Assembly: GCA_050179755.1 (NCBI GenBank)
Contig: JBFXEV010000001.1
Span: 137,994-201,993 of the forward strand
Length of the DNA: 64,000 bases
Direction: 5' to 3'
DNA from: Candidatus Babeliales bacterium
GTDB lineage: Bacteria > Babelota > Babeliae > Babelales > JBFXEV01
Shown: positions 19,944 through 63,202 of the stretch, piece by piece
Layout of the letters: every line of letters starts with the position of its first letter
Numbering within the stretch: position 1 is the first letter of the stretch
Notes under the pieces: generated by a model
Seen by the model: the letters and a program-made list of their open reading frames with translations, nothing else
What the model was told of the DNA's origin: nothing
Databases searched by the model: none
Translations under genes and position numbers: made by a program

Positions 19944-21641
19944 ATGCGCCAAGGATTTTACTTGTTTAATTATTTCTTTTTCTTCTGTAGCATACTCTGC
20001 ACTACCACCAATCTATGGTGCATGCGAACCCAGCCATTTTTTAAAGTTGTTACAACTAATGATGGCAAAGAATATATGGCCCATCCTAAATTATTTGCAG
20101 CTTGTAACTCTGTTGTTCCTATCGACCCTACTGAACATATTTTTCCACTGAAAACGGTTTCAAGTACAGAATGGGAACCATTCGAGGCTTGTTTACAAGC
20201 ATTATTTAAAGAAGAAAGGACTATGCAACCTGCACAACAGCGCTCCTTAGGCGTGATTATAGGAGAGCAAGCTACCAATAAAAAAAGAGCTCGCGATATA
20301 CTTGCAGTAGCGCATTTATTTGGTCATGATCAACTTGTAGATGCCACCATGCAACTATGGGCAGATCGCAATTATGGCATGCCAGAGCAAATTTCTAGTG
20401 ATTCGCTACCGCATGAACTGGTCTACGATTTGCCAGCTGATGCACAAGAAGGGATAGCTCAAAAGGTACTTTATAGTACGCCTTTAGACCAAAAGTTACC
20501 AAAATGGGTAATAAAAATGAACATAAAACCGCGCACCATAAAACTTACACAGAGTTTATGGTCATGCGCAGCAAATAAACATTCTCAAGTTGCTGTAGGC
20601 TGCGTGGATGGTACAATTACCATTCTTGCTGATGAAACTGTTCAACGAAATTTTCCGGCGCATACCAAAGAAGTAAGCGATCTTCACTTTTGCCCCGATG
20701 GCAACTTTTTATTTTCTGCAGCGCAAGACAGCGTAATCAAAGTGTGGAATGCACAACAAGAATTTGCATTCGTTCGTGAATTTCAATTAAACAAACCGAC
20801 ACTTCCTTTTTCTATAGCGCTTAATACTCAAAATACGTTAATTGCAACACCACTTGACCAGGGTATACGCGTATTTGATGCCAACACCGATGATATTAAC
20901 TTTATACTAAATCCAAATAGTAAATCAGCCACCGTTATTTTTGACCAAACAGGTGCGCGCTTGATTGCAGATGCGCAACAAAGTACTATTGCAATTTTCA
21001 ATGTACAAACAGGAATACAGGAAGCAGCACTTGAAATCCAACAAAATATACCTCAGCGATTGCAATGTAATGCGCAAAATTCTTTGCTTGCAGCCGGTAT
21101 GAAATCTGGCCTTATATTTTTATGGAACCTTTCTGATTTTAGCTTACAAGCAACCTTTAATGCGCATGCAAATAAAATTTGGGCGATCGAATTTAGCCCT
21201 TGTAGTAGATTTTTATTCACGGCTTCTACAGATAAAACCGTTAAGATTTGGGATCTAGTCACCGTTAAATGTATAAAAACCTTTAACGTTAACACCGCCG
21301 TACATGATATGCGCCTTACCCCAGATTTAGAACTTATTATAGCGTGCAAAAACCGTGCCCTAAAATTCATTCCCATTAAAGACTTTCTTAAACAATATCA
21401 AAAACACTGCCATTATTTTAAAAACAAGACTACACTTGCACAGGCTCTTTTAATTCAAGAAGCTTTTACCAGAAAACAAGATAACCCGCTTGTGTTGACA
21501 CCCGAAGCTAGAGCAACATTAAGCACATTTGATCCAATTATTAAGGCTTTACTTCAAAAAGAATTACCATTCCAAAAAGCAACAAAGAAAAAAAGGAAAA
21601 CAGAAGATGAAAAAGATGCAGATTACGTTCCAGACAATTAA
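19944..21641 (+). CDS. Exported Skp1/BTB-like + WD40-repeat protein
   Basis: Signal peptide; ILAVAHLFGHDQL (Skp1-like); WD40 repeats AH...IKVWN, AH...TVKIWD; basic tail KKKRK. Confidence 0.8.
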   Translation: MRQGFYLFNYFFFFCSILCTTTNLWCMRTQPFFKVVTTNDGKEYMAHPKLFAACNSVVPIDPTEHIFPLKTVSSTEWEPFEACLQALFKEERTMQPAQQRSLGVIIGEQATNKKRARDILAVAHLFGHDQLVDATMQLWADRNYGMPEQISSDSLPHELVYDLPADAQEGIAQKVLYSTPLDQKLPKWVIKMNIKPRTIKLTQSLWSCAANKHSQVAVGCVDGTITILADETVQRNFPAHTKEVSDLHFCPDGNFLFSAAQDSVIKVWNAQQEFAFVREFQLNKPTLPFSIALNTQNTLIATPLDQGIRVFDANTDDINFILNPNSKSATVIFDQTGARLIADAQQSTIAIFNVQTGIQEAALEIQQNIPQRLQCNAQNSLLAAGMKSGLIFLWNLSDFSLQATFNAHANKIWAIEFSPCSRFLFTASTDKTVKIWDLVTVKCIKTFNVNTAVHDMRLTPDLELIIACKNRALKFIPIKDFLKQYQKHCHYFKNKTTLAQALLIQEAFTRKQDNPLVLTPEARATLSTFDPIIKALLQKELPFQKATKKKRKTEDEKDADYVPDN

Positions 21642-23376
21642 ACAAAATCTACTGGGCATACTATTCATCATTTCTTGCACAACAATGCCCTTGCACCAAG
21701 TTGATGGCACAATCACATGCTTTAGTAACGGCAAGCCAGTTTCACACCTTAAAACCACGTTGCAAACAGGACAACAACAAGTCATTGTAAAAACTAAAAT
21801 ATTAATGCCTTGTCTTGCACTAGCAGTACATATTGAAGAAGGGCAGGAGGTCATTCCATTACCCAACATACCACCATTTGAGCTTCTTCATGTAGCAGCA
21901 TGCCTGCAAGCGCATTATGAACTTATGCACGCTCGTTCAAAAGAAGAATATCAAGGAAAACGCCAACAACTTGATGCACAGCTTAATTCAGAAGAAAAAG
22001 TTCACACAGCGCTTATGGCAGCAAATTATTTAGATCATAAAGATCTGCGTGCTCGATGCGCATCCCTTTGGGCCACTAAAAATTACTCGCGCTCATTTAT
22101 GCAAGCTACGCCTGACGAAGTTGAATTTGAAATTGCACAGCGAAAACTTGAACAAACATCACTCCATGACGATATTGCCTATTGGATGGCTCAAAAAACT
22201 TGGATCAACCCCACAAGGACACTTAATCATAAGAACCGGTCAGTTTGGTCACTGGCTTCCAATAGCTCTGGCACGCAAGTTGCCGTTGGCGATTACTTGG
22301 GAAAAATTAGAGTATATGAGCAGGATCAAAAAGAACCTAGTATTAGCATACAAGCACATGCTACTGCCATCACTGATATAGCATTTAACGAAGATGATAC
22401 TTTGGTAGCCACTTGTGCAAGAGATGGCTCACTTCGTTTTTGGGATATTGAAACTAAAGCACAAAAATCGCAACTTGACAGCGACCATCCGCTTGCCCCC
22501 TATGCCTTTAAAACGCATTACAACACAGAGCAAATTGCCTATGATGAAGGATCTAACATTATAGTCGTAAACCCCGCCAATGACACAGAAAAAGTACTTG
22601 AAGGCCATAGTGATTATATTTGCTCTCTTGCTTTTAATAGTGAAGGCACCATGCTTGCATCAGGGGGGGAAGACTGCTCCATAAAACTCTGGGATCTTTC
22701 CACTGGTGCGTGCATGGCAACATTAATTTCTCATACAGAATCGGTGGCTTGCGTACAATTTAGCCCTGATGACAGTTTACTTGCAGCAGGATCTATGGAT
22801 GCTAGTATTTCTCTCTATGATGTTTCAACGCAAGAATTAGTTACAAAACTTGAAGGCCATAAGAACAAAGTTTGGTCGGTAATTATTTCAAACGATAATC
22901 AATTTTTATATTCTGCCTCAGTTGATGGCTCGATTAAAATCTGGCATTTGCCTACTGCGCGCTTGATTAAAAATTTAGTGACTTTTCCACGTACCCAGCT
23001 GCATGCAATGGTTTTGCAACCCAATGGCAGATTAGTTACTGCAGCATTAAATGGAGATATACAATTTTGGGATATCCCTACAATAATCCATCCCATACAA
23101 GCGCTGCAAAAGTATATGCAAAGCGACAGAAGTTTTGATCAAGCCCAATTGATTGTTGATGCTTATGATGCACCTCAAAAAGAGCCTCTTGATTGTTCAA
23201 CAAAGCGTGAACGAGCAAGAGCTTTTGAAACACTTAGACCTGAAATGCAAGACTTACTTATACACAACTTGCATGTAAAGCCCCCAAAGAAAAGAGTAAA
23301 ATCAAGAAAGAAAGGTTCACAAAATAGTTCATCACGCAAACGCGCTACCGCTGATGCAATTGAGCCATTCAAGTAA
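21607..23376 (+). CDS. Exported Skp1-like + WD40-repeat protein
   Basis: IPLPNI...LMAANYLD (Skp1 hallmark); canonical GH...WD repeats; basic tail PPKKRVKSRKK. Confidence 0.85.
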   Translation: MKKMQITFQTIKQNLLGILFIISCTTMPLHQVDGTITCFSNGKPVSHLKTTLQTGQQQVIVKTKILMPCLALAVHIEEGQEVIPLPNIPPFELLHVAACLQAHYELMHARSKEEYQGKRQQLDAQLNSEEKVHTALMAANYLDHKDLRARCASLWATKNYSRSFMQATPDEVEFEIAQRKLEQTSLHDDIAYWMAQKTWINPTRTLNHKNRSVWSLASNSSGTQVAVGDYLGKIRVYEQDQKEPSISIQAHATAITDIAFNEDDTLVATCARDGSLRFWDIETKAQKSQLDSDHPLAPYAFKTHYNTEQIAYDEGSNIIVVNPANDTEKVLEGHSDYICSLAFNSEGTMLASGGEDCSIKLWDLSTGACMATLISHTESVACVQFSPDDSLLAAGSMDASISLYDVSTQELVTKLEGHKNKVWSVIISNDNQFLYSASVDGSIKIWHLPTARLIKNLVTFPRTQLHAMVLQPNGRLVTAALNGDIQFWDIPTIIHPIQALQKYMQSDRSFDQAQLIVDAYDAPQKEPLDCSTKRERARAFETLRPEMQDLLIHNLHVKPPKKRVKSRKKGSQNSSSRKRATADAIEPFK

Positions 23377-26065: not shown

Positions 26066-26560
26066 ATGAAGAAACTTGCCATTGCTCTATTATTTTGCGT
26101 ATGCCCACCCCTGTATAGCGCGTCTAACATTATTCCCTTGGAAAAATTAATGTTCTATTCCATAGTTGCTGATAATGCCAAAGAAAAACTAGCGCACGAA
26201 TATCCGGAATATACTGCTTGGCTTTCTGATACTAACGCTCTTTTGCTCCTTAACTTTATTACTACAACAGATAAGCCTGTGATTATTAAATTCGGTGCTG
26301 ACTGGTGCATGCCCTGCAAGAGCCTTGCACCCATTGTGCACGAAGCCGCTTTTGAATGCAGTAATGACGTCCTTATTATTGACATTAATATTGATGATGC
26401 GCCTACGATCCGCCAAATGTTTGATATTCAAACTATCCCTACCTTAATTTATTTTAAAAATGGCAAACAAAAGGATCGCACCCACTCTGTTAGTAAAGCA
26501 ACCCTACTTACTAAAATCAAACATTTAATTGACCTAAAAAGTCCTTTATTTACCCCGTAA
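26066..26560 (+). CDS. Exported thioredoxin-family protein
   Basis: Signal peptide; ADWCMPCK, IPTL. Confidence 0.85.
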   Translation: MKKLAIALLFCVCPPLYSASNIIPLEKLMFYSIVADNAKEKLAHEYPEYTAWLSDTNALLLLNFITTTDKPVIIKFGADWCMPCKSLAPIVHEAAFECSNDVLIIDINIDDAPTIRQMFDIQTIPTLIYFKNGKQKDRTHSVSKATLLTKIKHLIDLKSPLFTP

Positions 26561-26677
26561 AAATAGAAGACTTGTCCTGTATTAAAGCATTATTTCCGAC
26601 GCAAGATTTGCCCAGATAACAATAAAAAGGTATAGTAAAAAGTAGATAGTAACGTAGTAAAAAAGTAGGAATATCTA

Positions 26678-27187
26678 ATGAATAAAAATAGTATTTTTGC
26701 CCTTACCATGCTGGCAGCTACTTGGGGCTTAACATTAAATGTATGTGCAGGGCAAGCGGCTAACGTACAAGACATCAAACAATTAAGCGATGCTGGCATT
26801 CAGCCGCAAGACCTTAAAGTATATTTGCAAAAAAATGCACCCGATTTAGTAAAATTTGTGGGCACAACGCCTAGTAAGCTTGAAGTACAATTATTTACCA
26901 CTATTGCGCAATCAAAAAAGCCTGTAGTAGTTAAATTCTATATAAATGGATGTGGCCCCTGCAAGCAAATGGGTAGAATAGTGGAACAAGTTGCAAAAGA
27001 ACTTGGTGAAAGCATATTGGTAATTAATATAGAATCAACCGAAGCTACCCGCAATCTTATGCGCGTTTTGAATGCAAATGGAGTTCCTACGCTTGTTTTC
27101 TTTAAAGATGGCAAAAAAGTAGATCAATTTACCGGCACGCTCAGCGCACAAGAATTAACAGGTAAGCTTAAAAAGTTAGTGAACTAA
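26678..27187 (+). CDS. Exported thioredoxin-family protein
   Basis: Signal peptide; GCGPCK, VPTLVFFKDG. Confidence 0.85.
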   Translation: MNKNSIFALTMLAATWGLTLNVCAGQAANVQDIKQLSDAGIQPQDLKVYLQKNAPDLVKFVGTTPSKLEVQLFTTIAQSKKPVVVKFYINGCGPCKQMGRIVEQVAKELGESILVINIESTEATRNLMRVLNANGVPTLVFFKDGKKVDQFTGTLSAQELTGKLKKLVN

Positions 27188-28541: not shown

Positions 28542-29894
28542 TTACGCTTTACCTTCCAAATGTTTAATAAGGGTCGCAATTATTGGATTATTCAAACGAT
28601 CAGCATTGCCTCCAGAATCAGTAATAATATATTGGGTTTTGCCTTGTTGCTTATTAAGCACGAGCGAAATCCAATGTTCCTCACCCTGAGGGTAGCCGGG
28701 AATTCCTGCCATAAGGCCGACCACAAAACCATGCACAAATGTATCAGCGCGTGCGTACCGATCAGCAATTTCACGAATTTTTTCATTTTCTCCAAATCCG
28801 CGAGGATCATCGAGCAATGGCACATTCTCAATAATGGTAATTCCATCAAAAGTTACTGGCATTGCATAAAGTAACCCGCCCGCCTTTTGCTCAACGTCTA
28901 TTATTTGCTGTATTTGGTTTTCTTTAATCCAATCACCGTAATAATCTACTTGATTCATTACATTACTTATATTATACGATAATGCTGCACTAATCTGGGC
29001 AATGCCCTTATACTTTACCGGCTTGTTATCTACCGGAACATGCGTACCAAATTCTATTGTATCTTTCAACCGAGGCAAATACTGCGCAATAGCTTCATCT
29101 GATCTTACATATTCATTAAAATTAAAGTGTTCAAGACCCTCAATATCCCCGGAAATAGTCTGTTTGGAATTCTTAATAGCATCTATAAGTTCCCTTTTTG
29201 TGACAGGCTTTTTATAAAATCTATCATGTTCGGGAAAATCTGATGGCGCTTGCATGGTATTTGCCTGTATCTCAGTCATAATCTTTTGCATTAAATCTGG
29301 GCTAAATTTGTTTGTGAGAACACTTTGATAAAAACCTCGCATTTTTTCGCGAAACCTATCTTGCAACCCTTGATTTAATTGTTGTGCTGCCCGCGGCAAA
29401 GATGGCAGGTTTTCTTTATCTCTTGGATCATACAATAATTGCAATAACCTTTCATCGACTACCCATTTAATGACTCGTCGATACATACTTTGCAAAACTA
29501 GAACCCGCCAACGCCCCAACGGATTTTGTTTACTAAATAATTCTTGCGCAAGAGAAAGGCTCGTCAAATCGGCTAACGCTGCTTTGCCAAATATAATTCG
29601 AGGAATAAAAATTGCATTTTTGAGAGCCTGATAACCGCAACTTGCTCCACCACCATATTCTGGCCCTGCAAACTGATTAAGAACTGGCAATTGAACAATT
29701 TCTTGACCCCATACAATACTTTTTTGAGGACTATCAAAAAAATGCTGTGCTCGCGCTTGTCCACTAGTTTTTAAGTGTTGCTCAAGGCTATAAAGTGAGC
29801 GTGATAAATTTTGTAATTGTTCAGAAATTTGCGCACAAACGGTGTAAGGCACTATTAAGAATAAACTCAATGTGCTGATAAAAATTACTTGCAT
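28542..29894 (-). CDS. Exported papain-fold cysteine-protease-like protein (Cys-His-Asp); paralog of 60792-62117
   Basis: NQ...ASCGYQALKNA, EHWISLV...ITDSG, conserved in both paralogs. Confidence 0.65.
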   Translation of the reverse strand: MQVIFISTLSLFLIVPYTVCAQISEQLQNLSRSLYSLEQHLKTSGQARAQHFFDSPQKSIVWGQEIVQLPVLNQFAGPEYGGGASCGYQALKNAIFIPRIIFGKAALADLTSLSLAQELFSKQNPLGRWRVLVLQSMYRRVIKWVVDERLLQLLYDPRDKENLPSLPRAAQQLNQGLQDRFREKMRGFYQSVLTNKFSPDLMQKIMTEIQANTMQAPSDFPEHDRFYKKPVTKRELIDAIKNSKQTISGDIEGLEHFNFNEYVRSDEAIAQYLPRLKDTIEFGTHVPVDNKPVKYKGIAQISAALSYNISNVMNQVDYYGDWIKENQIQQIIDVEQKAGGLLYAMPVTFDGITIIENVPLLDDPRGFGENEKIREIADRYARADTFVHGFVVGLMAGIPGYPQGEEHWISLVLNKQQGKTQYIITDSGGNADRLNNPIIATLIKHLEGKA

Positions 29895-30010
29895 ACACTT
29901 CCTTAAAAATATTAAGTTACCATTAACTTTAACATTATAACAAATAGTATCAACGAATAACTATTTCTTTTCCGCAACAGATATTTTTTCACTAGTATAT
30001 TCCTAACAAC

Positions 30011-30037
30011 AAAAGGGGCGCTTTGTGCGCCCCTTTT
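30011..30037 (-). terminator. Intrinsic terminator downstream of nrdB
   Basis: AAAAGGGGCGC-TTTGT-GCGCCCCTTTT. Confidence 0.8.
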
Positions 30038-30061
30038 GCTTTTTAATCGCAGTCCAGTGAA

Positions 30062-34324: not shown

Positions 34325-35449
34325 ATGAAACGTTCTTATCACTTACTTGTTACGTTGGTAACACTTAGTTATTCATTATCAGCAGTTGCTGGTTGCCCGT
34401 GCGCGCGTGAAAAACGTGCAATGCGCGCAAAACGAACTGCTGTTCAGCCAATGGCACCAGTAACTTCTGTTTCTCAATCAGTTGGCAATATAGTTTCTGA
34501 TCTTACACAGGGCAATGTAGTTGGAGCAACCGGTCAAGCAATTAGAACAGCACCTGATGCTACAGCATCTGTAGTACAACCCAGTATGCCAAAAACAGAA
34601 AAAAGGCTAATGGAAGTTGAAGCGGCGCCTATGCCTAAGAAAATGAAAACTGAAGCTCCAGCACCAGCACCACAAGTCATGGAAAATAATAGAATTGATC
34701 TCTCGAAACAGTCTGATTTTGATGCACTTATAACCAAACATCCACACGTTATCGCAGTGTTTACTACAACTTGGTGCGGCCCCTGCAAAAATTTAAAACC
34801 AGTTCTTGATGAAATACGTACAAGTAACAAAGATGTAATGTTTGTGTATGTTGATGGTGATGAGTATCCAGGGCTTGTTAGCAAATATGCAAGCGTGGGA
34901 TTCCCTACGCTCAAATTGTTTAAAAATGGCAAAGAAGTTGCTCAAGCAATTGGTGGACAATCAAAAGATGAAATACAAAGCTTAATCAATCAACATTTTA
35001 AAGGTGGCGTGCCAACATTTGTAATGGGTGATGCTACTGAATCAATAGAACAAGTGGCAGCTCCCGCACCACAACCTATTAAAATGCCTGCACCTGCTCC
35101 AGCACCAATGCAAGAATCCATGACAGCAAACAAAATAGTCCTTGTAAAAGACTCAGATTTTGATGGTCATTTAAGAAAAAACAAAAACGTTATTGGCATC
35201 TTTACTACCACATGGTGCGGGCCATGTAAAACGCTTAAACCAGTACTTGAAGAACTTGTAGGATCAAATGCAAACGTAACGTTTGTCTACGTTGATGGTG
35301 ATAGATTCCCAAGTCTTGTAAAAAAATATGCAAGCATTGGATTCCCAACACTTAAATTCTTTAAGAATGGTAAAGAAGTTGCACAGACTGTTGGTGGCAG
35401 ATCACGCGATGAATTGCAAAGCATGATTAACCAACATTATAGAGGATAA
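34325..35449 (+). CDS. Exported tandem two-domain thioredoxin with Pro/Ala-rich linkers
   Basis: AAGGAG RBS, signal peptide, two near-duplicate domains each with TTWCGPCK and GFPTLK. Confidence 0.88.
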   Translation: MKRSYHLLVTLVTLSYSLSAVAGCPCAREKRAMRAKRTAVQPMAPVTSVSQSVGNIVSDLTQGNVVGATGQAIRTAPDATASVVQPSMPKTEKRLMEVEAAPMPKKMKTEAPAPAPQVMENNRIDLSKQSDFDALITKHPHVIAVFTTTWCGPCKNLKPVLDEIRTSNKDVMFVYVDGDEYPGLVSKYASVGFPTLKLFKNGKEVAQAIGGQSKDEIQSLINQHFKGGVPTFVMGDATESIEQVAAPAPQPIKMPAPAPAPMQESMTANKIVLVKDSDFDGHLRKNKNVIGIFTTTWCGPCKTLKPVLEELVGSNANVTFVYVDGDRFPSLVKKYASIGFPTLKFFKNGKEVAQTVGGRSRDELQSMINQHYRG

Positions 35450-60264: not shown

Positions 60265-60780
60265 TTAATTCATGGTAAGAGCTTGTTTTAGTTCGCGCTT
60301 AAACTTATATTGGCCATTATCAAAAACCTCTAGTGAGGCTTGTTCACCCTTTCTAAGATTCACTGGAGCTTGATACCATCCACTGTTTATATGACGCCAC
60401 TTAAAAGTTTGAATGCCAGAATGCTCTACGGTAAAAGTAACTGATTGGGGATCCCAATACGATTGATACGGCGCAATAGACGTTTTTGTCTTAGCATTTT
60501 TGCTATTTACCGTATCTGGATCTGTATAACTTTCCAATACCATACAGCGGGCCATATTGTATACCTTAAGTGAAGATTTAGACGCTTTGTCAAGCCAATA
60601 CACCGCTGCAACAAAGCTGGCACAAAACGCAATAGTAACTAGCACCGATTCATCATCTTTTGCCATGTTCCATGCATAATCAAGTATGCCTTGACCACGA
60701 GCATGAGACTCCATGCTTTTAGCTGGCAATGCAATGCTTGTTAAAAACACTATCATGCTAAGTTTTTTAATCATCTTCAT
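60265..60780 (-). CDS. Exported hypothetical protein
   Basis: AAGGA RBS, signal PAKS-MES, second hydrophobic segment. Confidence 0.65.
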   Translation of the reverse strand: MKMIKKLSMIVFLTSIALPAKSMESHARGQGILDYAWNMAKDDESVLVTIAFCASFVAAVYWLDKASKSSLKVYNMARCMVLESYTDPDTVNSKNAKTKTSIAPYQSYWDPQSVTFTVEHSGIQTFKWRHINSGWYQAPVNLRKGEQASLEVFDNGQYKFKRELKQALTMN

Positions 60781-60791
60781 AAGCGTTCCTT

Positions 60792-62117
60792 TTACTTAAT
60801 TTTAATACTAGTAAGATGCTTAATCAATGTCCAAATAATGCCATCTTTAATGCGAGAAGCATTAGCTCCAGAATCGGCAACACTATATTCAATAATGCCA
60901 TGATGCTTATGCACCACAAGCGTGATCCAATGCCGGCTTCCAGAAACCGATCCGGGCTTGCCGCTCATAAGACCAACCACAAAAGCGTGTATAAAATCAT
61001 CTACTTTTGCAAGACGCTCAGCTATCTCGATAATTTCTTTATATTCTCCTTCACCTTGATTCAAGAGCGGCACGTTATCAATAATAGTTATGCCATCAAA
61101 ATGAACTGGTAAATCTGCAAGCAATCCACCAACTTGCTGTTCATGCTTAAGTAAAAGGCCAATTTCATTTTCATTGACCCAATCACCTTGTGCATCAAAC
61201 TTGTTATCAGGATGTGCTGCATTATACTGTTGAAGCGCTTCAGCTTTTGAAATTTCAAATATATGTTCAGCATTTATTGTATTTTCGGGCACATATAATG
61301 CAAGCGCCTCATCACTTTTTGCATAGGCCACAAAATCAAAATTCTCGAGCCCTTCAATATCACCTTTCATAATTCGCTGAGACTTTTTGACTGCGTCAAT
61401 AAACAGAGCACGCGTGATAGTAATTTTTGTGCTCGCTTCTAAAGGTTGGCCCTCAAGTGCAGAGAATAATGCTGCCACTAATTGCGGGCTTAGCTCAGTT
61501 GCTAGCACGCCTTGGTAAAAGCCACGAATTTTTGTTTTAAAACGGTCTTGTAATTTCTGATCAAGATGTTGCGCCTCAAGTGGAACTTCTACATGCTGCA
61601 CGTCATTATAAGAAATTAACAATGCATACAATTTTTGATCAATATGCCATTTGATCGCACGGCGATACGTATTTTCTAGCACTAATTTACGCCAACCGCC
61701 TTTAGGGTCTTTTTTATTAAATAACTGCTGTACAATAGAAAGATCAGTAAGCTGCGGTTGCCCTGCTTTGCCAGACAGCATGCGGCATATATAGATAGCA
61801 TTTTTTAAAGATTGATAACCACAACTTGCATCGCCACCATGATCAGCAGATCCATATTGATTAAGTACGTGCAATTGCTTAATAGTGGGCCCCCAAATGG
61901 AACCGTACACTGCACGATTAGTGCGCATTTGCTTGGCCGCATACACACCTGCTCCTGCAAGTGCGCCTACTGCAAGCAATGCACCAGAATGTTCTTTTGC
62001 AAAGTTTAATGCGCGATCAAAATAATTCTGATCGCCATCCCCTGAATCCATAGCATGAGCTGGGAATGCTATGCACCATAGAGATATAAACAAGATAATG
62101 TGTTTAACTATATTCAT
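60792..62117 (-). CDS. Exported papain-fold cysteine-protease-like protein (Cys-His-Asp); paralog of 28542-29894
   Basis: Signal AHA-MDS; NQ...ASCGYQSLKNA, RHWITLV...VADSG. Confidence 0.65.
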   Translation of the reverse strand: MNIVKHIILFISLWCIAFPAHAMDSGDGDQNYFDRALNFAKEHSGALLAVGALAGAGVYAAKQMRTNRAVYGSIWGPTIKQLHVLNQYGSADHGGDASCGYQSLKNAIYICRMLSGKAGQPQLTDLSIVQQLFNKKDPKGGWRKLVLENTYRRAIKWHIDQKLYALLISYNDVQHVEVPLEAQHLDQKLQDRFKTKIRGFYQGVLATELSPQLVAALFSALEGQPLEASTKITITRALFIDAVKKSQRIMKGDIEGLENFDFVAYAKSDEALALYVPENTINAEHIFEISKAEALQQYNAAHPDNKFDAQGDWVNENEIGLLLKHEQQVGGLLADLPVHFDGITIIDNVPLLNQGEGEYKEIIEIAERLAKVDDFIHAFVVGLMSGKPGSVSGSRHWITLVVHKHHGIIEYSVADSGANASRIKDGIIWTLIKHLTSIKIK

Positions 62118-63202
62118 TTTCGTACCTCTGTCTCATCATCTTCTAACTCATCACAGAAAGCATCTAGCTCTGCATCGCTTAACTTGCAAATTGCTTTAAT
62201 AACATTACGCGTAATTACGGGGCGATACTGCTCAATTTTTTTAGGATCAACCAGATCGCGTATTTCATCTTTTGCTTGAATTTGTATTTTACGATCTTGC
62301 AATAACGCATCTATGCTGCTCAATCGAGCATCTATTACCTTTTGAATCTCTTGCTGTAGTGACTGCATTGCGTTTGTATCTTCTTGTGCTACTTCAAGTA
62401 AATTTGCGCAAACTACTTTGGTCATCTTAAAATGATTAAGTGAACAAAACAAGGACTGTTCAAGCATGCATTGAACTGCCTGCGCATTACCCTTTTTTAC
62501 TGCTACATACAATGCTGTTTGGCCACTTGAATTCGTTAGATCAATTCGAGCGCCCCGCTCTAGAAGTTGGGGCAGCAATGCACTATGCCCTTCTTCCAAA
62601 AGCATATGTATCGCTGTATCACCATCATTAGTTTGCGCATTGAGGTCTACATGTGCTTTGCAAAACAACTGCACCACGTCGGCAGCACCAGTTCGCGCTG
62701 CCCAGTGCAACGGCGTGCAACCATCTGCATCTTTTACATACTGCCTTTGTACATTTTCAAAAATAATTTTTGCTAAGTTTGCACGATTAAAAAGAGCTGC
62801 AAAATGCAATTGCGTAAACCCATGAAAATCCTCGGGTTGCAAATGTGCGCAATCGGCAAGAATAAATGTATCAATTTTTGCATCATCTTCCACATAAGAA
62901 CTTGCAAGATCAGACTCTTTTATAAGAGCTACCAGTTCACTTTTAACGTAGTCTACGGTAAGTAATTTTTTGCTCTCTAAAGCTTGTGTAACTCGCGATT
63001 GTCTTTGAGCATTGCGCTCATGCACTGCTACCTGTGGAGTATGTTTTATTGATGGCTTAAACACAGAACTAACAGCCCTGCTAATCCTCATTTTTAAGCG
63101 ACCAAATAAACCCTTATCACCGTTGCCTGAATCCATAGCGCGGGCAGGGAAAACAATACAAAATAAGAATAAAATAAGGGTGATTTTCTTAAAAATATTC
63201 AT
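62114..63202 (-). CDS. Exported ankyrin-repeat protein
   Basis: Signal ARA-MDS; GFTQLHFAA, GCTPLHWAA, GDTAIH, GQTALYVA. Confidence 0.88.
   Translation of the reverse strand: MNIFKKITLILFLFCIVFPARAMDSGNGDKGLFGRLKMRISRAVSSVFKPSIKHTPQVAVHERNAQRQSRVTQALESKKLLTVDYVKSELVALIKESDLASSYVEDDAKIDTFILADCAHLQPEDFHGFTQLHFAALFNRANLAKIIFENVQRQYVKDADGCTPLHWAARTGAADVVQLFCKAHVDLNAQTNDGDTAIHMLLEEGHSALLPQLLERGARIDLTNSSGQTALYVAVKKGNAQAVQCMLEQSLFCSLNHFKMTKVVCANLLEVAQEDTNAMQSLQQEIQKVIDARLSSIDALLQDRKIQIQAKDEIRDLVDPKKIEQYRPVITRNVIKAICKLSDAELDAFCDELEDDETEVRK

What the first reader, a model, noticed from the sequence alone, without database searches (positions are those of the whole stretch)
28542..29894. Two secreted paralogous Cys-His-Asp proteases: candidate deubiquitinase/deSUMOylase effectors (partner at 60792-62117)
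Seen: both paralogs conserve LNQ-x10-CGYQxLKNA near the N-terminus and HWIxLV-x13-DSG near the C-terminus, separated by a ~300-aa insertion. Established: Q..C then HW..(D/N)S is the Josephin/papain (CA clan) order; CE-clan ULP-type proteases carry similar motifs in the order H-D-C. Inference: an uncharacterised family of ubiquitin or Ubl proteases with a large specificity insertion, complementing the E3-like proteins in this window.
Basis: partly seen in the sequence, partly recalled or inferred. Interest (0 to 1): 0.72.

Follow-up and report, generated by a model that had tools for sequence, protein, structure and literature searches.

The report
Circularly permuted Ulp1-like cysteine proteases
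Two related genes in this amoeba-parasite-type bacterial genome encode probably exported cysteine proteases built like a rearranged SUMO/ubiquitin-removing enzyme, a family first noticed in 2015, never tested at the bench, and common across the phylum.

Summary
ORFs 28542-29894(-) (450 aa) and 60792-62117(-) (441 aa) are paralogs (46% identity, E 2e-118). Both carry the stated motifs, but the first spacer is x11, not x10. Across 91 relatives Cys86, His407 and Ser427 are invariant, Asp426 is always D or N, and Trp408 is present in 85.

These are very likely Gly-Gly-directed Ub/Ubl-type cysteine peptidases, but the Josephin/CA-clan assignment is not supported. The better reading is a circularly permuted Ulp1-like (clan CE, C48) domain. 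The Gln...Cys helix that ends a normal CE enzyme comes first here. The 'GxWLxxxEI' helix and the His-Trp and Asp-Ser strands come last.

- Three relatives pass Pfam's C48 cut-off over the His/Asp part.
- CE enzymes are the top sequence-profile and Foldseek matches.
- The family profile hits a Babela massiliensis protein that Pagnier et al. 2015 described as a 'circularly permuted homolog of Ulp1' fused to an AAA ATPase.

The window's proteins are stand-alone forms. The '~300-aa insertion' is a discrete module of about 175 aa at the permutation junction (short-form relatives have 11-27 aa there). The family occurs in 110 of 261 genomes of the phylum. Activity, substrate and delivery into the host are untested.

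The parts
28542..29894 (-). Gene for P0001, 450 aa: stand-alone, circularly permuted Ulp1-like cysteine peptidase (long form)
   Evidence: ORF and translation. AF2 model pLDDT 88.1, pTM 0.82. Family profile search finds 432 representatives.
29826..29894 (-). Signal-peptide-like hydrophobic N-terminus of P0001 (residues 1-23, ...VCA|QIS)
   Evidence: Kyte-Doolittle 19-mer maximum 2.18 over residues 1-23. By inspection only; no predictor was run.
29637..29681 (-). LNQ-x11-C: Gln74 (putative oxyanion-hole Gln) to Cys86 (nucleophile) at the start of helix 86-101
   Evidence: Coordinates. Cys86 91/91, Gln74 89/91. Helix 86-101 in the model.
28938..29504 (-). Residues 131-319: mostly helical insertion module at the permutation junction
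   Evidence: Linker-length distribution. Helices 128-151, 175-211 and others, plus a small hairpin 284-295. No Pfam or PDB match.
28926..28937 (-). GDWI (residues 320-323), start of the 'GxWLxxxEI' helix; counterpart of the C48 'WLND..I' motif
   Evidence: G320 84/91, W322 66/91, L323 74/91, E327 78/91. Aligned to SENP8 'SWLNDHII' by HMMER and to 'GGWINDEII' by hhalign.
28611..28676 (-). His407-Trp408 ... Asp426-Ser427 on two adjacent strands (408-416, 419-425)
   Evidence: Coordinates, conservation, strands. Aligned to CidB 'RHWVTLV...YYADSLG'.
60792..62117 (-). Gene for P0002, 441 aa: paralog with Cys99 (61821-61823), His396 (60930-60932) and Asp415 (60873-60875)
   Evidence: A 59%-identical ortholog sits in the same gene order in a Babeliales MAG (L003).
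62114..63202 (-). Ankyrin-repeat gene (362 aa) whose stop overlaps the P0002 start by 4 nt; a conserved gene pair
   Evidence: Pfam Ank_2 E 6e-35. The same overlapping pair occurs in L003, neighbour 45% identical.
60265..60780 (-). 171-aa ORF just downstream of P0002: signal-like N-terminus, hydrophobic segment 44-64, and a small C-terminal domain that is fused to the peptidase in two metagenomic relatives
   Evidence: Residues 63-171 are 49% identical (E 4e-30) to residues 468-574 of P0003. Hydropathy.
29926..30038 (-). Terminator-like hairpin (30010-30038) after the upstream RNR-beta gene, and a promoter-like site (29953-29926) ahead of P0001: probably its own transcription unit
   Evidence: Consensus scan. 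These are pattern matches only.

Best explanation
Each gene encodes a probably Sec-exported cysteine peptidase of about 50 kDa. Its catalytic core is a circularly permuted Ulp1/adenain-type (clan CE, C48-like) domain. The segment that ends a canonical CE enzyme, the oxyanion Gln and the nucleophilic Cys at the start of the central helix (Q74...C86), comes first here. The segment that begins a canonical CE enzyme comes last: the Trp-bearing 'GxWLxxxEI' helix, then the strands with His407-Trp408 and Asp426-Ser427. The two halves are joined by a mostly helical module of about 175-190 aa, inserted at the junction of the permutation. By analogy with CE enzymes (Ulp1/SENP, NEDP1, ChlaDUB, SseL, RickCE, CidB), the Cys86 thiolate, activated by His407 and oriented by Asp426, would cleave the (iso)peptide bond after the Gly-Gly tail of a host ubiquitin or ubiquitin-like modifier. 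Trp408 and Trp322 would restrict access to a Gly-Gly tail, and the helical module may form the modifier-binding surface. Shown here: the paralogy, the invariant triad, the papain-type fold, the CE-like sequence signals in permuted order, homology to the published Babela family, and the wide distribution in the phylum. Inferred: catalytic activity, Ub/Ubl substrate, the roles of the two Trp residues and of the insertion, and export into the host.
For: - Triad and motif conservation in 91 sequences.
- High-confidence models: full length pLDDT 88.1; 222-aa short-form relative pLDDT 92.8, pTM 0.89.
- All non-helical structural matches are papain-fold peptidases, mostly DUB/Ubl proteases.
- CE signals from Pfam: PF02902 passes its 20.7-bit cut-off over the His/Asp region in relatives P0153 (26.1 bits) and P0154 (28.6 bits), 2 of 50 scanned. 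It also passes in L020 (28.1 bits), which the family HMM claims at E 5e-15. PF02902 is the family matched by most A2 members, 4 of 91 at E<=1.
- CE signals from PDB sequence profiles: CidB Ulp domain E 0.012 with the A2 profile. With the core profile the top two of four hits are CidB (E 0.095) and SENP8 (E 0.15). In each, the profile's C-terminal part aligns to the chain's N-terminal part and the profile's Cys motif aligns to the chain's C-terminal Cys motif.
- CE signals from Foldseek: the highest-probability hits are NopD 0.96, NEDP1 0.84 and CidB 0.87.
- CE chains align only model residues ~80-220, at lower rmsd (3.0-3.6 A) and higher identity (13-16%).
- The family profile hits P0127 at E 1.8e-17. 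[quoted passage not shown] Ulp1' (passages). Its supplement shows HHpred hits to PF02902 in permuted order: query 280-391 to template 2-135, probability 89.4; query 28-62 to template 148-182, probability 75.1.
- The own genome has no ubiquitin-family gene. The neighbouring genes encode ankyrin and WD40 proteins.
Against: - P0001 and P0002 themselves get no PF02902 hit, even at E<=1 or E<=10. The CE link is transitive, through the family.
- My own profile-profile test against an 8-sequence C48 alignment was not significant: E 0.11, only HW..DS aligned. A 4-sequence version gave P 0.0044.
- The core HMM scored only 3 of 11 canonical C48 sequences above the 95th percentile of 550 shuffles, and found no second Q-C domain there.
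- The PDB profile E-values (0.012-0.15) are borderline. The second, permuted HMMER domains score only about 2 bits.
- The best whole-domain structural Z-scores go to CA-order enzymes: M48 7.1, VTD 7.0, BpJOS 6.8, against 5.0-5.6 for CE chains. None reaches Z 8.
- Triad geometry could not be measured because no coordinates are returned.
- Nothing here shows activity, substrate or secretion.
Confidence: 0.65

Rival explanations
1. One reading: a divergent Josephin-type or other CA-clan DUB (Josephin, VTD/herpes-tegument-like, OTU or USP) in the native papain order, unrelated to clan CE. The predicted function would still be Ub/Ubl deconjugation, possibly in the 'clippase' mode of the bacterial Josephins.
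For: The order Gln-Cys...His-Asp is the CA order. The best full-domain structural matches of the core model are M48 (Z 7.1, 156 aligned, rmsd 4.2), VTD 8add (Z 7.0), BpJOS (Z 6.8, 140 aligned), an OTU (Z 6.0) and PcJOS/PaJOS (Z 6.0). For the full-length model BpJOS is top at Z 5.8. Bacterial Josephins exist in amoeba-associated Chlamydiae (preprint sections read).
Against: No Josephin or tegument-family Pfam hit for P0001 or P0002 at E<=1. PF02099 has no match in the genome at E<=10. PF02099 is not among the 25 families listed for the 91 members; the other 59 of 84 families were not shown. No Josephin, VTD, OTU or USP chain appears in the PDB profile searches at E<=10, whereas CE chains lead them. 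All Z-scores are below 8 and within about 1.5 of the partial CE alignments. The aligner is sequence-order dependent, so it favours CA-order folds. The 'GxWLxxxEI' helix has a C48 counterpart. No Josephin counterpart was seen, though none was specifically looked for.
Confidence: 0.12
2. A CE-fold enzyme with a different chemistry or substrate. It could be a YopJ/ChlaDUB-like acetyltransferase, or a Gly-Gly/Gly-X processing protease acting on bacterial or host proteins other than Ub/Ubl. Examples of the latter are adenain or poxvirus I7L-type processing, C39-type double-glycine leader cleavage, and RavZ-type Atg8 delipidation.
For: Weak Foldseek and VIA matches of the models include AvrA, HopZ1a and Lem17 (YopJ family), MPXV I7L, RavZ, ATG4, UfSP and the PCAT/ComA C39 domains. 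An Atlas structure row names a YopJ-family cluster at TM 0.23. The three proteins encoded by the run of genes at 60265-63202 share a conserved leader after the signal peptide.
Against: The acidic triad residue is Asp/Asn, not the Glu I recall for YopJ enzymes. All these matches are weaker than, or tied with, the DUB/Ulp matches. The conserved His-Trp gatekeeper motif and the second Trp point to a Gly-Gly tail. Nothing ties the genes to an ABC exporter or a polyprotein.
Confidence: 0.13
3. The proteins act inside the bacterium's own envelope (periplasm or membrane), for example in protein maturation or turnover, and never meet host ubiquitin.
For: Only a Sec-type N-terminus is visible. P0002 and many relatives carry a second hydrophobic segment after it. 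No dedicated effector secretion signal was identified.
Against: The family is expanded (up to 7 or more matches per genome) in a phylum known only as intracellular parasites of protists. It sits next to, or is fused with, eukaryote-type domains: ankyrin, pentapeptide repeats and CDC48-like AAA. The closest functional analogs are host-directed effectors.
Confidence: 0.1

Closest known systems
Circularly permuted Ulp1-like peptidase domain of Babela massiliensis (Pagnier et al. 2015, Biol Direct 10:13; e.g. CDK30456.1 / Babela_gene_562)
   Same: The same domain family by profile (E 1.8e-17, match over profile 82-441, which includes the insertion). The same order...CGYHAL... at the N-terminus, GEWLxxEEI, then HWxTxV...DS at the C-terminus. 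Signal-peptide-like N-termini. The same phylum.
   Different: The Babela proteins are fused to an AAA+ ATPase, partly repeated and partly inactivated, and were reported as unique to that species. The window's proteins are stand-alone and have an intact triad. One is paired with an ankyrin gene, and in relatives it is fused to a small extra domain. Pairwise BLAST similarity is marginal (E 0.006).
Canonical clan CE / Peptidase_C48 enzymes (Ulp1, SENPs, NEDP1/SENP8, CidB, NopD, XopD, RickCE, OtDUB, ChlaDUB, SseL)
   Same: WL..EI helix, His-Trp strand, x-Asp-Ser strand and Gln...[DS]-Cys-Gly helix motifs. The top PDB profile and Foldseek matches are CE enzymes. The structural fit covers about 105-117 residues at rmsd 3.0-3.6 A.
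   Different: The linear order is Q-C...W...H-D instead of W...H-D...Q-C. The Gln-to-Cys spacing is 12 residues rather than about 6 (5 in some short-form relatives). There is a large helical module at the junction. The Pfam model does not match the window's proteins.
Bacterial Josephin-like DUBs/clippases (BpJOS, PcJOS, PaJOS, SnJOS1/2; Hermanns et al., bioRxiv 10.1101/2024.07.24.604956)
   Same: Papain order Gln-Cys...His-Trp...Asp/Asn. A comparable whole-domain structural score (Z 6.0-6.8). Effectors of bacteria that live inside eukaryotic cells.
   Different: No sequence-level match in any search here. The C48-type WL..EI helix was not found matched in them.
Viral tegument-like DUBs (M48 USP, VTD family; Nat Commun 2022, PMC9741609, search listing only)
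   Same: The highest structural Z-scores of the core model (7.1 and 7.0, 153-156 residues aligned).
   Different: No sequence match. Z is below 8 with rmsd 4.2-4.3 A and 7-9% identity. As I recall it, the tegument DUB triad places Asp two residues before His, unlike the His-x18-Asp here. That is recalled, not tested.

Membership tests
Circularly permuted Ulp1-like peptidase family (Babela type) | Detectable homology to the Babela massiliensis permuted Ulp1-like domain | tested here: met
   The A1 profile hits P0127 at E 1.8e-17 over profile 82-441. P0127 is CDK30456.1 / Babela_gene_562.
Circularly permuted Ulp1-like peptidase family (Babela type) | Motif order: Gln...Cys helix first, then the WL..EI helix, His-Trp strand and Asp-Ser strand last | tested here: met
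   P0001 has Q74, C86, W322, H407 and D426; P0002 has C99, H396 and D415.
Circularly permuted Ulp1-like peptidase family (Babela type) | Fusion to an AAA+ ATPase | tested here: not met
   P0001 and P0002 end 24-26 residues after the Asp and have no Pfam AAA hit. Six of 50 relatives scanned do carry AAA.
Clan CE / Peptidase_C48 (canonical Ulp1 family) | Match to Pfam PF02902 at its gathering score | tested here: not met
   No hit for P0001 or P0002 at E<=1 or in the genome at E<=10. Relatives P0153, P0154 and L020 do pass, but only over the His/Asp part.
Clan CE / Peptidase_C48 (canonical Ulp1 family) | Linear order His - Asp - Gln - Cys | tested here: not met
   The order is Gln - Cys - His - Asp. 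Canonical Dependentiae C48 proteins show H-D-Q-C.
Clan CE / Peptidase_C48 (canonical Ulp1 family) | His-aromatic, Asp/Asn on the next strand, Gln and Cys-Gly motif, Trp-containing N-terminal helix | tested here: met
   H407 91/91, W408 85/91, D/N426 91/91, Q74 89/91, C86-G87 91/88 of 91, W322 66/91.
Clan CE / Peptidase_C48 (canonical Ulp1 family) | Structural superposition on CE catalytic domains | tested here: inconclusive
   Partial only: Z 5.0-5.6, 105-117 residues, rmsd 3.0-3.6 A, covering model 80-220. Foldseek probability 0.84-0.96 but E about 0.01-0.09. No permutation-aware aligner was available.
Clan CE / Peptidase_C48 (canonical Ulp1 family) | Hydrolysis of Ub/SUMO/NEDD8 conjugates | not testable with these tools
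   Needs biochemistry.
Josephin (MJD, PF02099) | Match to the Pfam Josephin model | tested here: not met
   No hit at E<=1 for either protein, and none in the genome at E<=10.
Josephin (MJD, PF02099) | Order Gln, Cys, His-Trp, Asn/Asp | tested here: met
   The feature is shared with several papain-fold families, so it is not diagnostic.
Josephin (MJD, PF02099) | Structural similarity to Josephin domains | tested here: inconclusive
   BpJOS Z 6.8 (140 aligned, rmsd 4.0), PcJOS and PaJOS Z 6.0, human Josephins Z 4.9. These are tied with other papain-fold DUBs and all are below Z 8.
Viral tegument-like DUB (VTD / herpes UL36 USP) | Structural similarity standing clear of other papain-fold families | tested here: inconclusive
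   Z 7.1 and 7.0, within about 1 of Josephin and OTU, at 7-9% identity. The Pfam scan reported no family at E<=1 apart from one weak, sub-threshold and evidently unrelated match per protein (Vps4_C for P0001, TrbC for P0002).

The most novel reading that the evidence does not exclude
The family is a phylum-wide, biochemically untouched class of Ub/Ubl proteases in which the adenain (CE) fold has been re-permuted back to the papain order. The helical module at the junction would be a new modifier-binding (S1) domain. That could give an unusual specificity, for example a protist-specific Ubl or a particular chain type, or an unusual cleavage register like the bacterial 'clippases'. It would also be a natural test case for how the CA and CE folds interconvert.
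Probability: 0.2. Interest if true: 0.75.

Novelty: new member of a known kind. Interest (0 to 1): 0.5.

Why it matters
Dependentiae are known only as intracellular parasites of protists, and how they handle the host ubiquitin system is unstudied at the bench. This peptidase family has no Pfam model and no solved structure. In my literature searches it appears only in the 2015 Babela genome paper, where it was thought unique to one species and tied to an AAA ATPase. Here it turns out to be present in 110 of 261 genomes of the phylum, often in several copies. It occurs in short and long forms and as stand-alone exported proteins. If active on ubiquitin or a Ubl, it would add a further structural class to the bacterial DUB repertoire and provide a natural circular permutant of the CE fold for mechanistic and evolutionary work.

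Tried and rejected
- Josephin membership: no sequence support. PF02099 was not among the 25 of 84 families listed. No Josephin, VTD, OTU or USP chain appeared in the PDB profile searches at E<=10.
- Direct profile-profile proof of the CE link was inconclusive. hhalign of A3 against an 8-sequence C48 alignment gave E 0.11. A 4-sequence version gave P 0.0044 for HW..DS and 0.16 for GEWL. The core HMM against 11 canonical C48 sequences was only weakly above shuffles. The C48 alignments were shallow because a homolog search from a Dependentiae C48 domain returned only 7 proteins.
- The A3 HMM does not detect the canonical C48 proteins L018, L019 and L025.
- Foldseek gave no hit at E<=0.001 for either model. 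No VIA match reached Z 8.
- The Atlas search gave only sub-0.9 leads: a RickCE_cat/C48 cluster at 0.79, ElaD at 0.76, and unnamed Nucleocytoviricota clusters at 0.78-0.80.
- Viral contigs: 43 pattern matches, none confirmed. An earlier attempt with A5 failed for lack of a conserved stretch.
- Ubiquitin as a docking partner: the genome has no ubiquitin-family gene. The Ub-like domains found in 13 of 261 related genomes lack a Gly-Gly end where inspected. No enzyme-ubiquitin complex was therefore predicted.
- Complex prediction of P0002 (70-441) with the neighbouring ankyrin protein (75-362) returned no verdict, score 0.01 against a mark of 0.32. This is evidence neither for nor against binding.
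- The small domain of ORF 60265-60780 was found in only 2 of 261 genomes, G000 and G121, and in G121 it is not next to the peptidase. A general partnership is therefore not claimed.
- GC content of both genes equals the window average, so there is no sign of recent transfer.
- Earlier findings of this scan: three look-ups, nothing returned.
Full report
**Observation**

The two ORFs are as described. ORF 28542-29894(-) encodes 450 aa (P0001) and ORF 60792-62117(-) encodes 441 aa (P0002). They align at 46% identity over 386 residues, E 2e-118.

The motifs are present:
- P0001: LNQ-x11-CGYQALKNA with Cys86, and HWISLV-x13-DSG with His407 and Asp426.
- P0002: the same pattern with Cys99, His396 and Asp415.

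The first spacer is therefore 11 residues, not 10. Neither protein matches any Pfam family at a meaningful level or any PDB chain by sequence.

**Family and conservation**

A word-indexed search found only 10 relatives. An exhaustive profile search found 432 representative clusters at E<=0.001 and 230 at E<=1e-10.

In an alignment of 91 of them:

| Position | Conservation |
|---|---|
| Cys86, His407, Ser427 | invariant (91/91) |
| Asp426 | D in 79, N in 12 |
| Trp408 | 85/91 |
| Gln74 | 89/91 |
| Gln68 | 86/91 |
| Gly87-Tyr88 | 88 and 85 of 91 |

A further conserved block, G320-[DE]-W322-L-x3-E327-I, opens a helix ahead of the His/Asp strands. This is the conservation pattern of an active Cys-His-Asp/Asn peptidase. 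The aromatic residue after the catalytic His is the 'gatekeeper' that Hermanns et al. 2020 found enriched in DUBs and Gly-Gly-cleaving Ubl proteases (passages read).

**Fold**

AlphaFold2 with the 91-sequence alignment gave a confident model of P0001: pLDDT 88.1, pTM 0.82. Because the long middle region weakens structure searches, I also modelled a 222-aa short-form relative (P0124) with a 78-sequence alignment: pLDDT 92.8, pTM 0.89.

Every non-trivial structural match is a papain-fold cysteine peptidase, most of them DUBs or Ubl proteases. None stands out: no Z reaches 8 and no Foldseek E reaches 0.001.

- Enzymes in the papain (CA) order align over the whole core: M48 Z 7.1, VTD 7.0, BpJOS 6.8, an OTU 6.0, PcJOS/PaJOS 6.0.
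- Clan-CE enzymes align only model residues ~80-220, but with lower rmsd (3.0-3.6 A) and higher identity (13-16%). These include CidB, OtDUB, NopD, XopD, RickCE, poxvirus I7L, SENP2, NEDP1 and RavZ.
- Foldseek, which also uses sequence, ranks CE enzymes highest by probability: NopD 0.96, NEDP1 0.84, CidB 0.87.

**Which family**

The sequence signals all point to clan CE, and they do so in permuted order.

- Pfam Peptidase_C48 passes its gathering score over the His/Asp region in relatives P0153 (26.1 bits) and P0154 (28.6 bits). These are 2 of 50 scanned; 42 of the 50 had no family at all, and 6 carried an AAA ATPase.
- It also passes in a Dependentiae locus (L020, 28.1 bits) that the family HMM claims.
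- It is the family matched by most of the 91 aligned members, 4 at E<=1.
- The family profile's best meaningful PDB hit is the CidB Ulp domain, E 0.012.
- With a core-only profile the top two of four hits are CidB and SENP8. In each, the profile's C-terminal block (eWL...HW...DS) aligns to the chain's N-terminal part, and the profile's N-terminal Q...ASCGY block aligns to the chain's C-terminal Q...CG motif. Those second alignments are individually insignificant.
- Motif by motif, 'GDWIKENQI', 'EHWISLV...YIITDSG' and 'VLNQ...ASCGYQAL' correspond to 'GGWINDEII', 'THWALAV...IYYDSL' and 'PSQENNSTDCGVFCI' of a canonical C48 protein from the same phylum.

My own profile-profile tests against shallow C48 alignments were not significant. 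P0001 and P0002 themselves do not hit the C48 model. The link is therefore transitive. No Josephin signal appeared in any sequence search.

**Literature**

Pagnier et al. [quoted passage not shown] These carry atypical signal peptides, and the authors considered them unique to that bacterium at the time. Their supplement shows HHpred hits to PF02902 in permuted order: query 280-391 to template 2-135, probability 89.4; query 28-62 to template 148-182, probability 75.1.

[quoted passage not shown] It does not list this family in the passages I saw. Searches for 'circularly permuted' + 'Ulp1', 'circular permutation' + 'CE clan' + 'deubiquitinase', and 'Dependentiae' + 'ubiquitin' + 'ankyrin' found no other description. 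A 2023 classification of papain-like peptidases does not mention Babela.

**The insertion**

The stretch between R130 and G320 is 189 aa in P0001. Across the 78 relatives of alignment A3 it is bimodal: 23 have 11-27 aa, 4 have 47-59 aa and 51 have 121-223 aa.

It lies exactly where the old C-terminal segment (Cys helix plus the 'WR' helix) is joined to the old N-terminal segment (the WL..EI helix). The model shows it as mostly helical with one small hairpin. It has no match in Pfam or PDB. A role in modifier binding is an inference only.

**Context and distribution**

The genome is a single 1,525,295-bp contig with only these two copies. The family profile matches 110 of 261 genomes of the phylum (81 of 189 high-quality genomes, 74 of 145 genera), with up to 7 or more matches per genome. 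The C48 model matches 7 of 261, and three of those matches are in fact permuted-family members.

P0002 is part of a conserved pair with an ankyrin-repeat gene whose stop overlaps its start. The same pair occurs in a Babeliales MAG, at 59% and 45% identity. The 171-aa ORF just downstream has a C-terminal domain that is fused to the peptidase in two metagenomic relatives (49% identity, E 4e-30), but this domain is rare.

P0001 has its own promoter-like site and follows a terminator hairpin. Both genes have the window's GC content. The genome has no ubiquitin-family gene. Both proteins begin with hydrophobic, signal-peptide-like segments.

**Verdict**

The functional guess, a Ub/Ubl-type cysteine protease that is probably exported, is reasonable but untested. 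The clan assignment should change from Josephin/CA to a circularly permuted Ulp1-like (CE) domain. That kind of domain is already in print for Babela; the window's two proteins are new, stand-alone members of it. What this work adds is that the family is widespread in the phylum, comes in short and long forms, and is missing from Pfam. Triad geometry, activity, substrate and host delivery remain open.

Noticed in passing
window 60265-63202 (-), and L003 445-5125: The ankyrin protein, P0002 and the 171-aa ORF all start with near-identical leaders: a signal-like segment (MNIFKKI.LIL..FCI.FPA.A) followed by M[DE]S.[DN]G[DH].. and F/L. In P0002 and the 171-aa ORF a second hydrophobic segment follows. 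The same leader recurs on three consecutive genes of the Babeliales MAG locus. It may be a shared sorting or anchoring module.
   Followed up: partly
window 19944-23376 (+): Two tandem paralogous WD40 proteins (26% identity, E 3e-41), each with an N-terminal region of about 200 aa that has no Pfam or PDB sequence match. Only the WD40 repeats are supported.
   Followed up: partly
P0003 (574 aa) and P0004 (514 aa), metagenomic relatives; window 60265-60780: Gene fusion/fission: the small C-terminal domain of the window's 171-aa ORF is the C-terminal extension of the peptidase in two relatives. A second copy lies elsewhere in the same genome (G000:C1:1192536-1192817).
   Followed up: partly
L026 (G232:C9:20222-23434): Two adjacent genes of a related genome encode signal-peptide-bearing proteins with a strong ubiquitin domain (PF00240, 96-97 bits). 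The domain ends ...LHLVLR[IW] without a Gly-Gly tail. Ubiquitin-family matches occur in 13 of 261 genomes of the phylum.
   Followed up: partly
relatives P0101, P0110, P0127, P0142, P0153, P0154; P0022: Other architectures of the family: the peptidase domain sits N-terminal to, or (in P0154) between, AAA+ ATPase modules. One relative combines ankyrin repeats, the peptidase and pentapeptide repeats.
   Followed up: partly
window 26066-27187 (+) and 34325-35449 (+): Several signal-peptide-bearing proteins with thioredoxin-type CxxC motifs (WCMPCK, GCGPCK and twice WCGPCK), seen by eye in the ORF translations. The last protein looks like an internal duplication.
   Followed up: no
window 30010-30038: A 12-bp GC-rich hairpin flanked by A and T runs lies between the ribonucleotide-reductase beta gene and P0001. 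It looks like a bidirectional intrinsic terminator.
   Followed up: no
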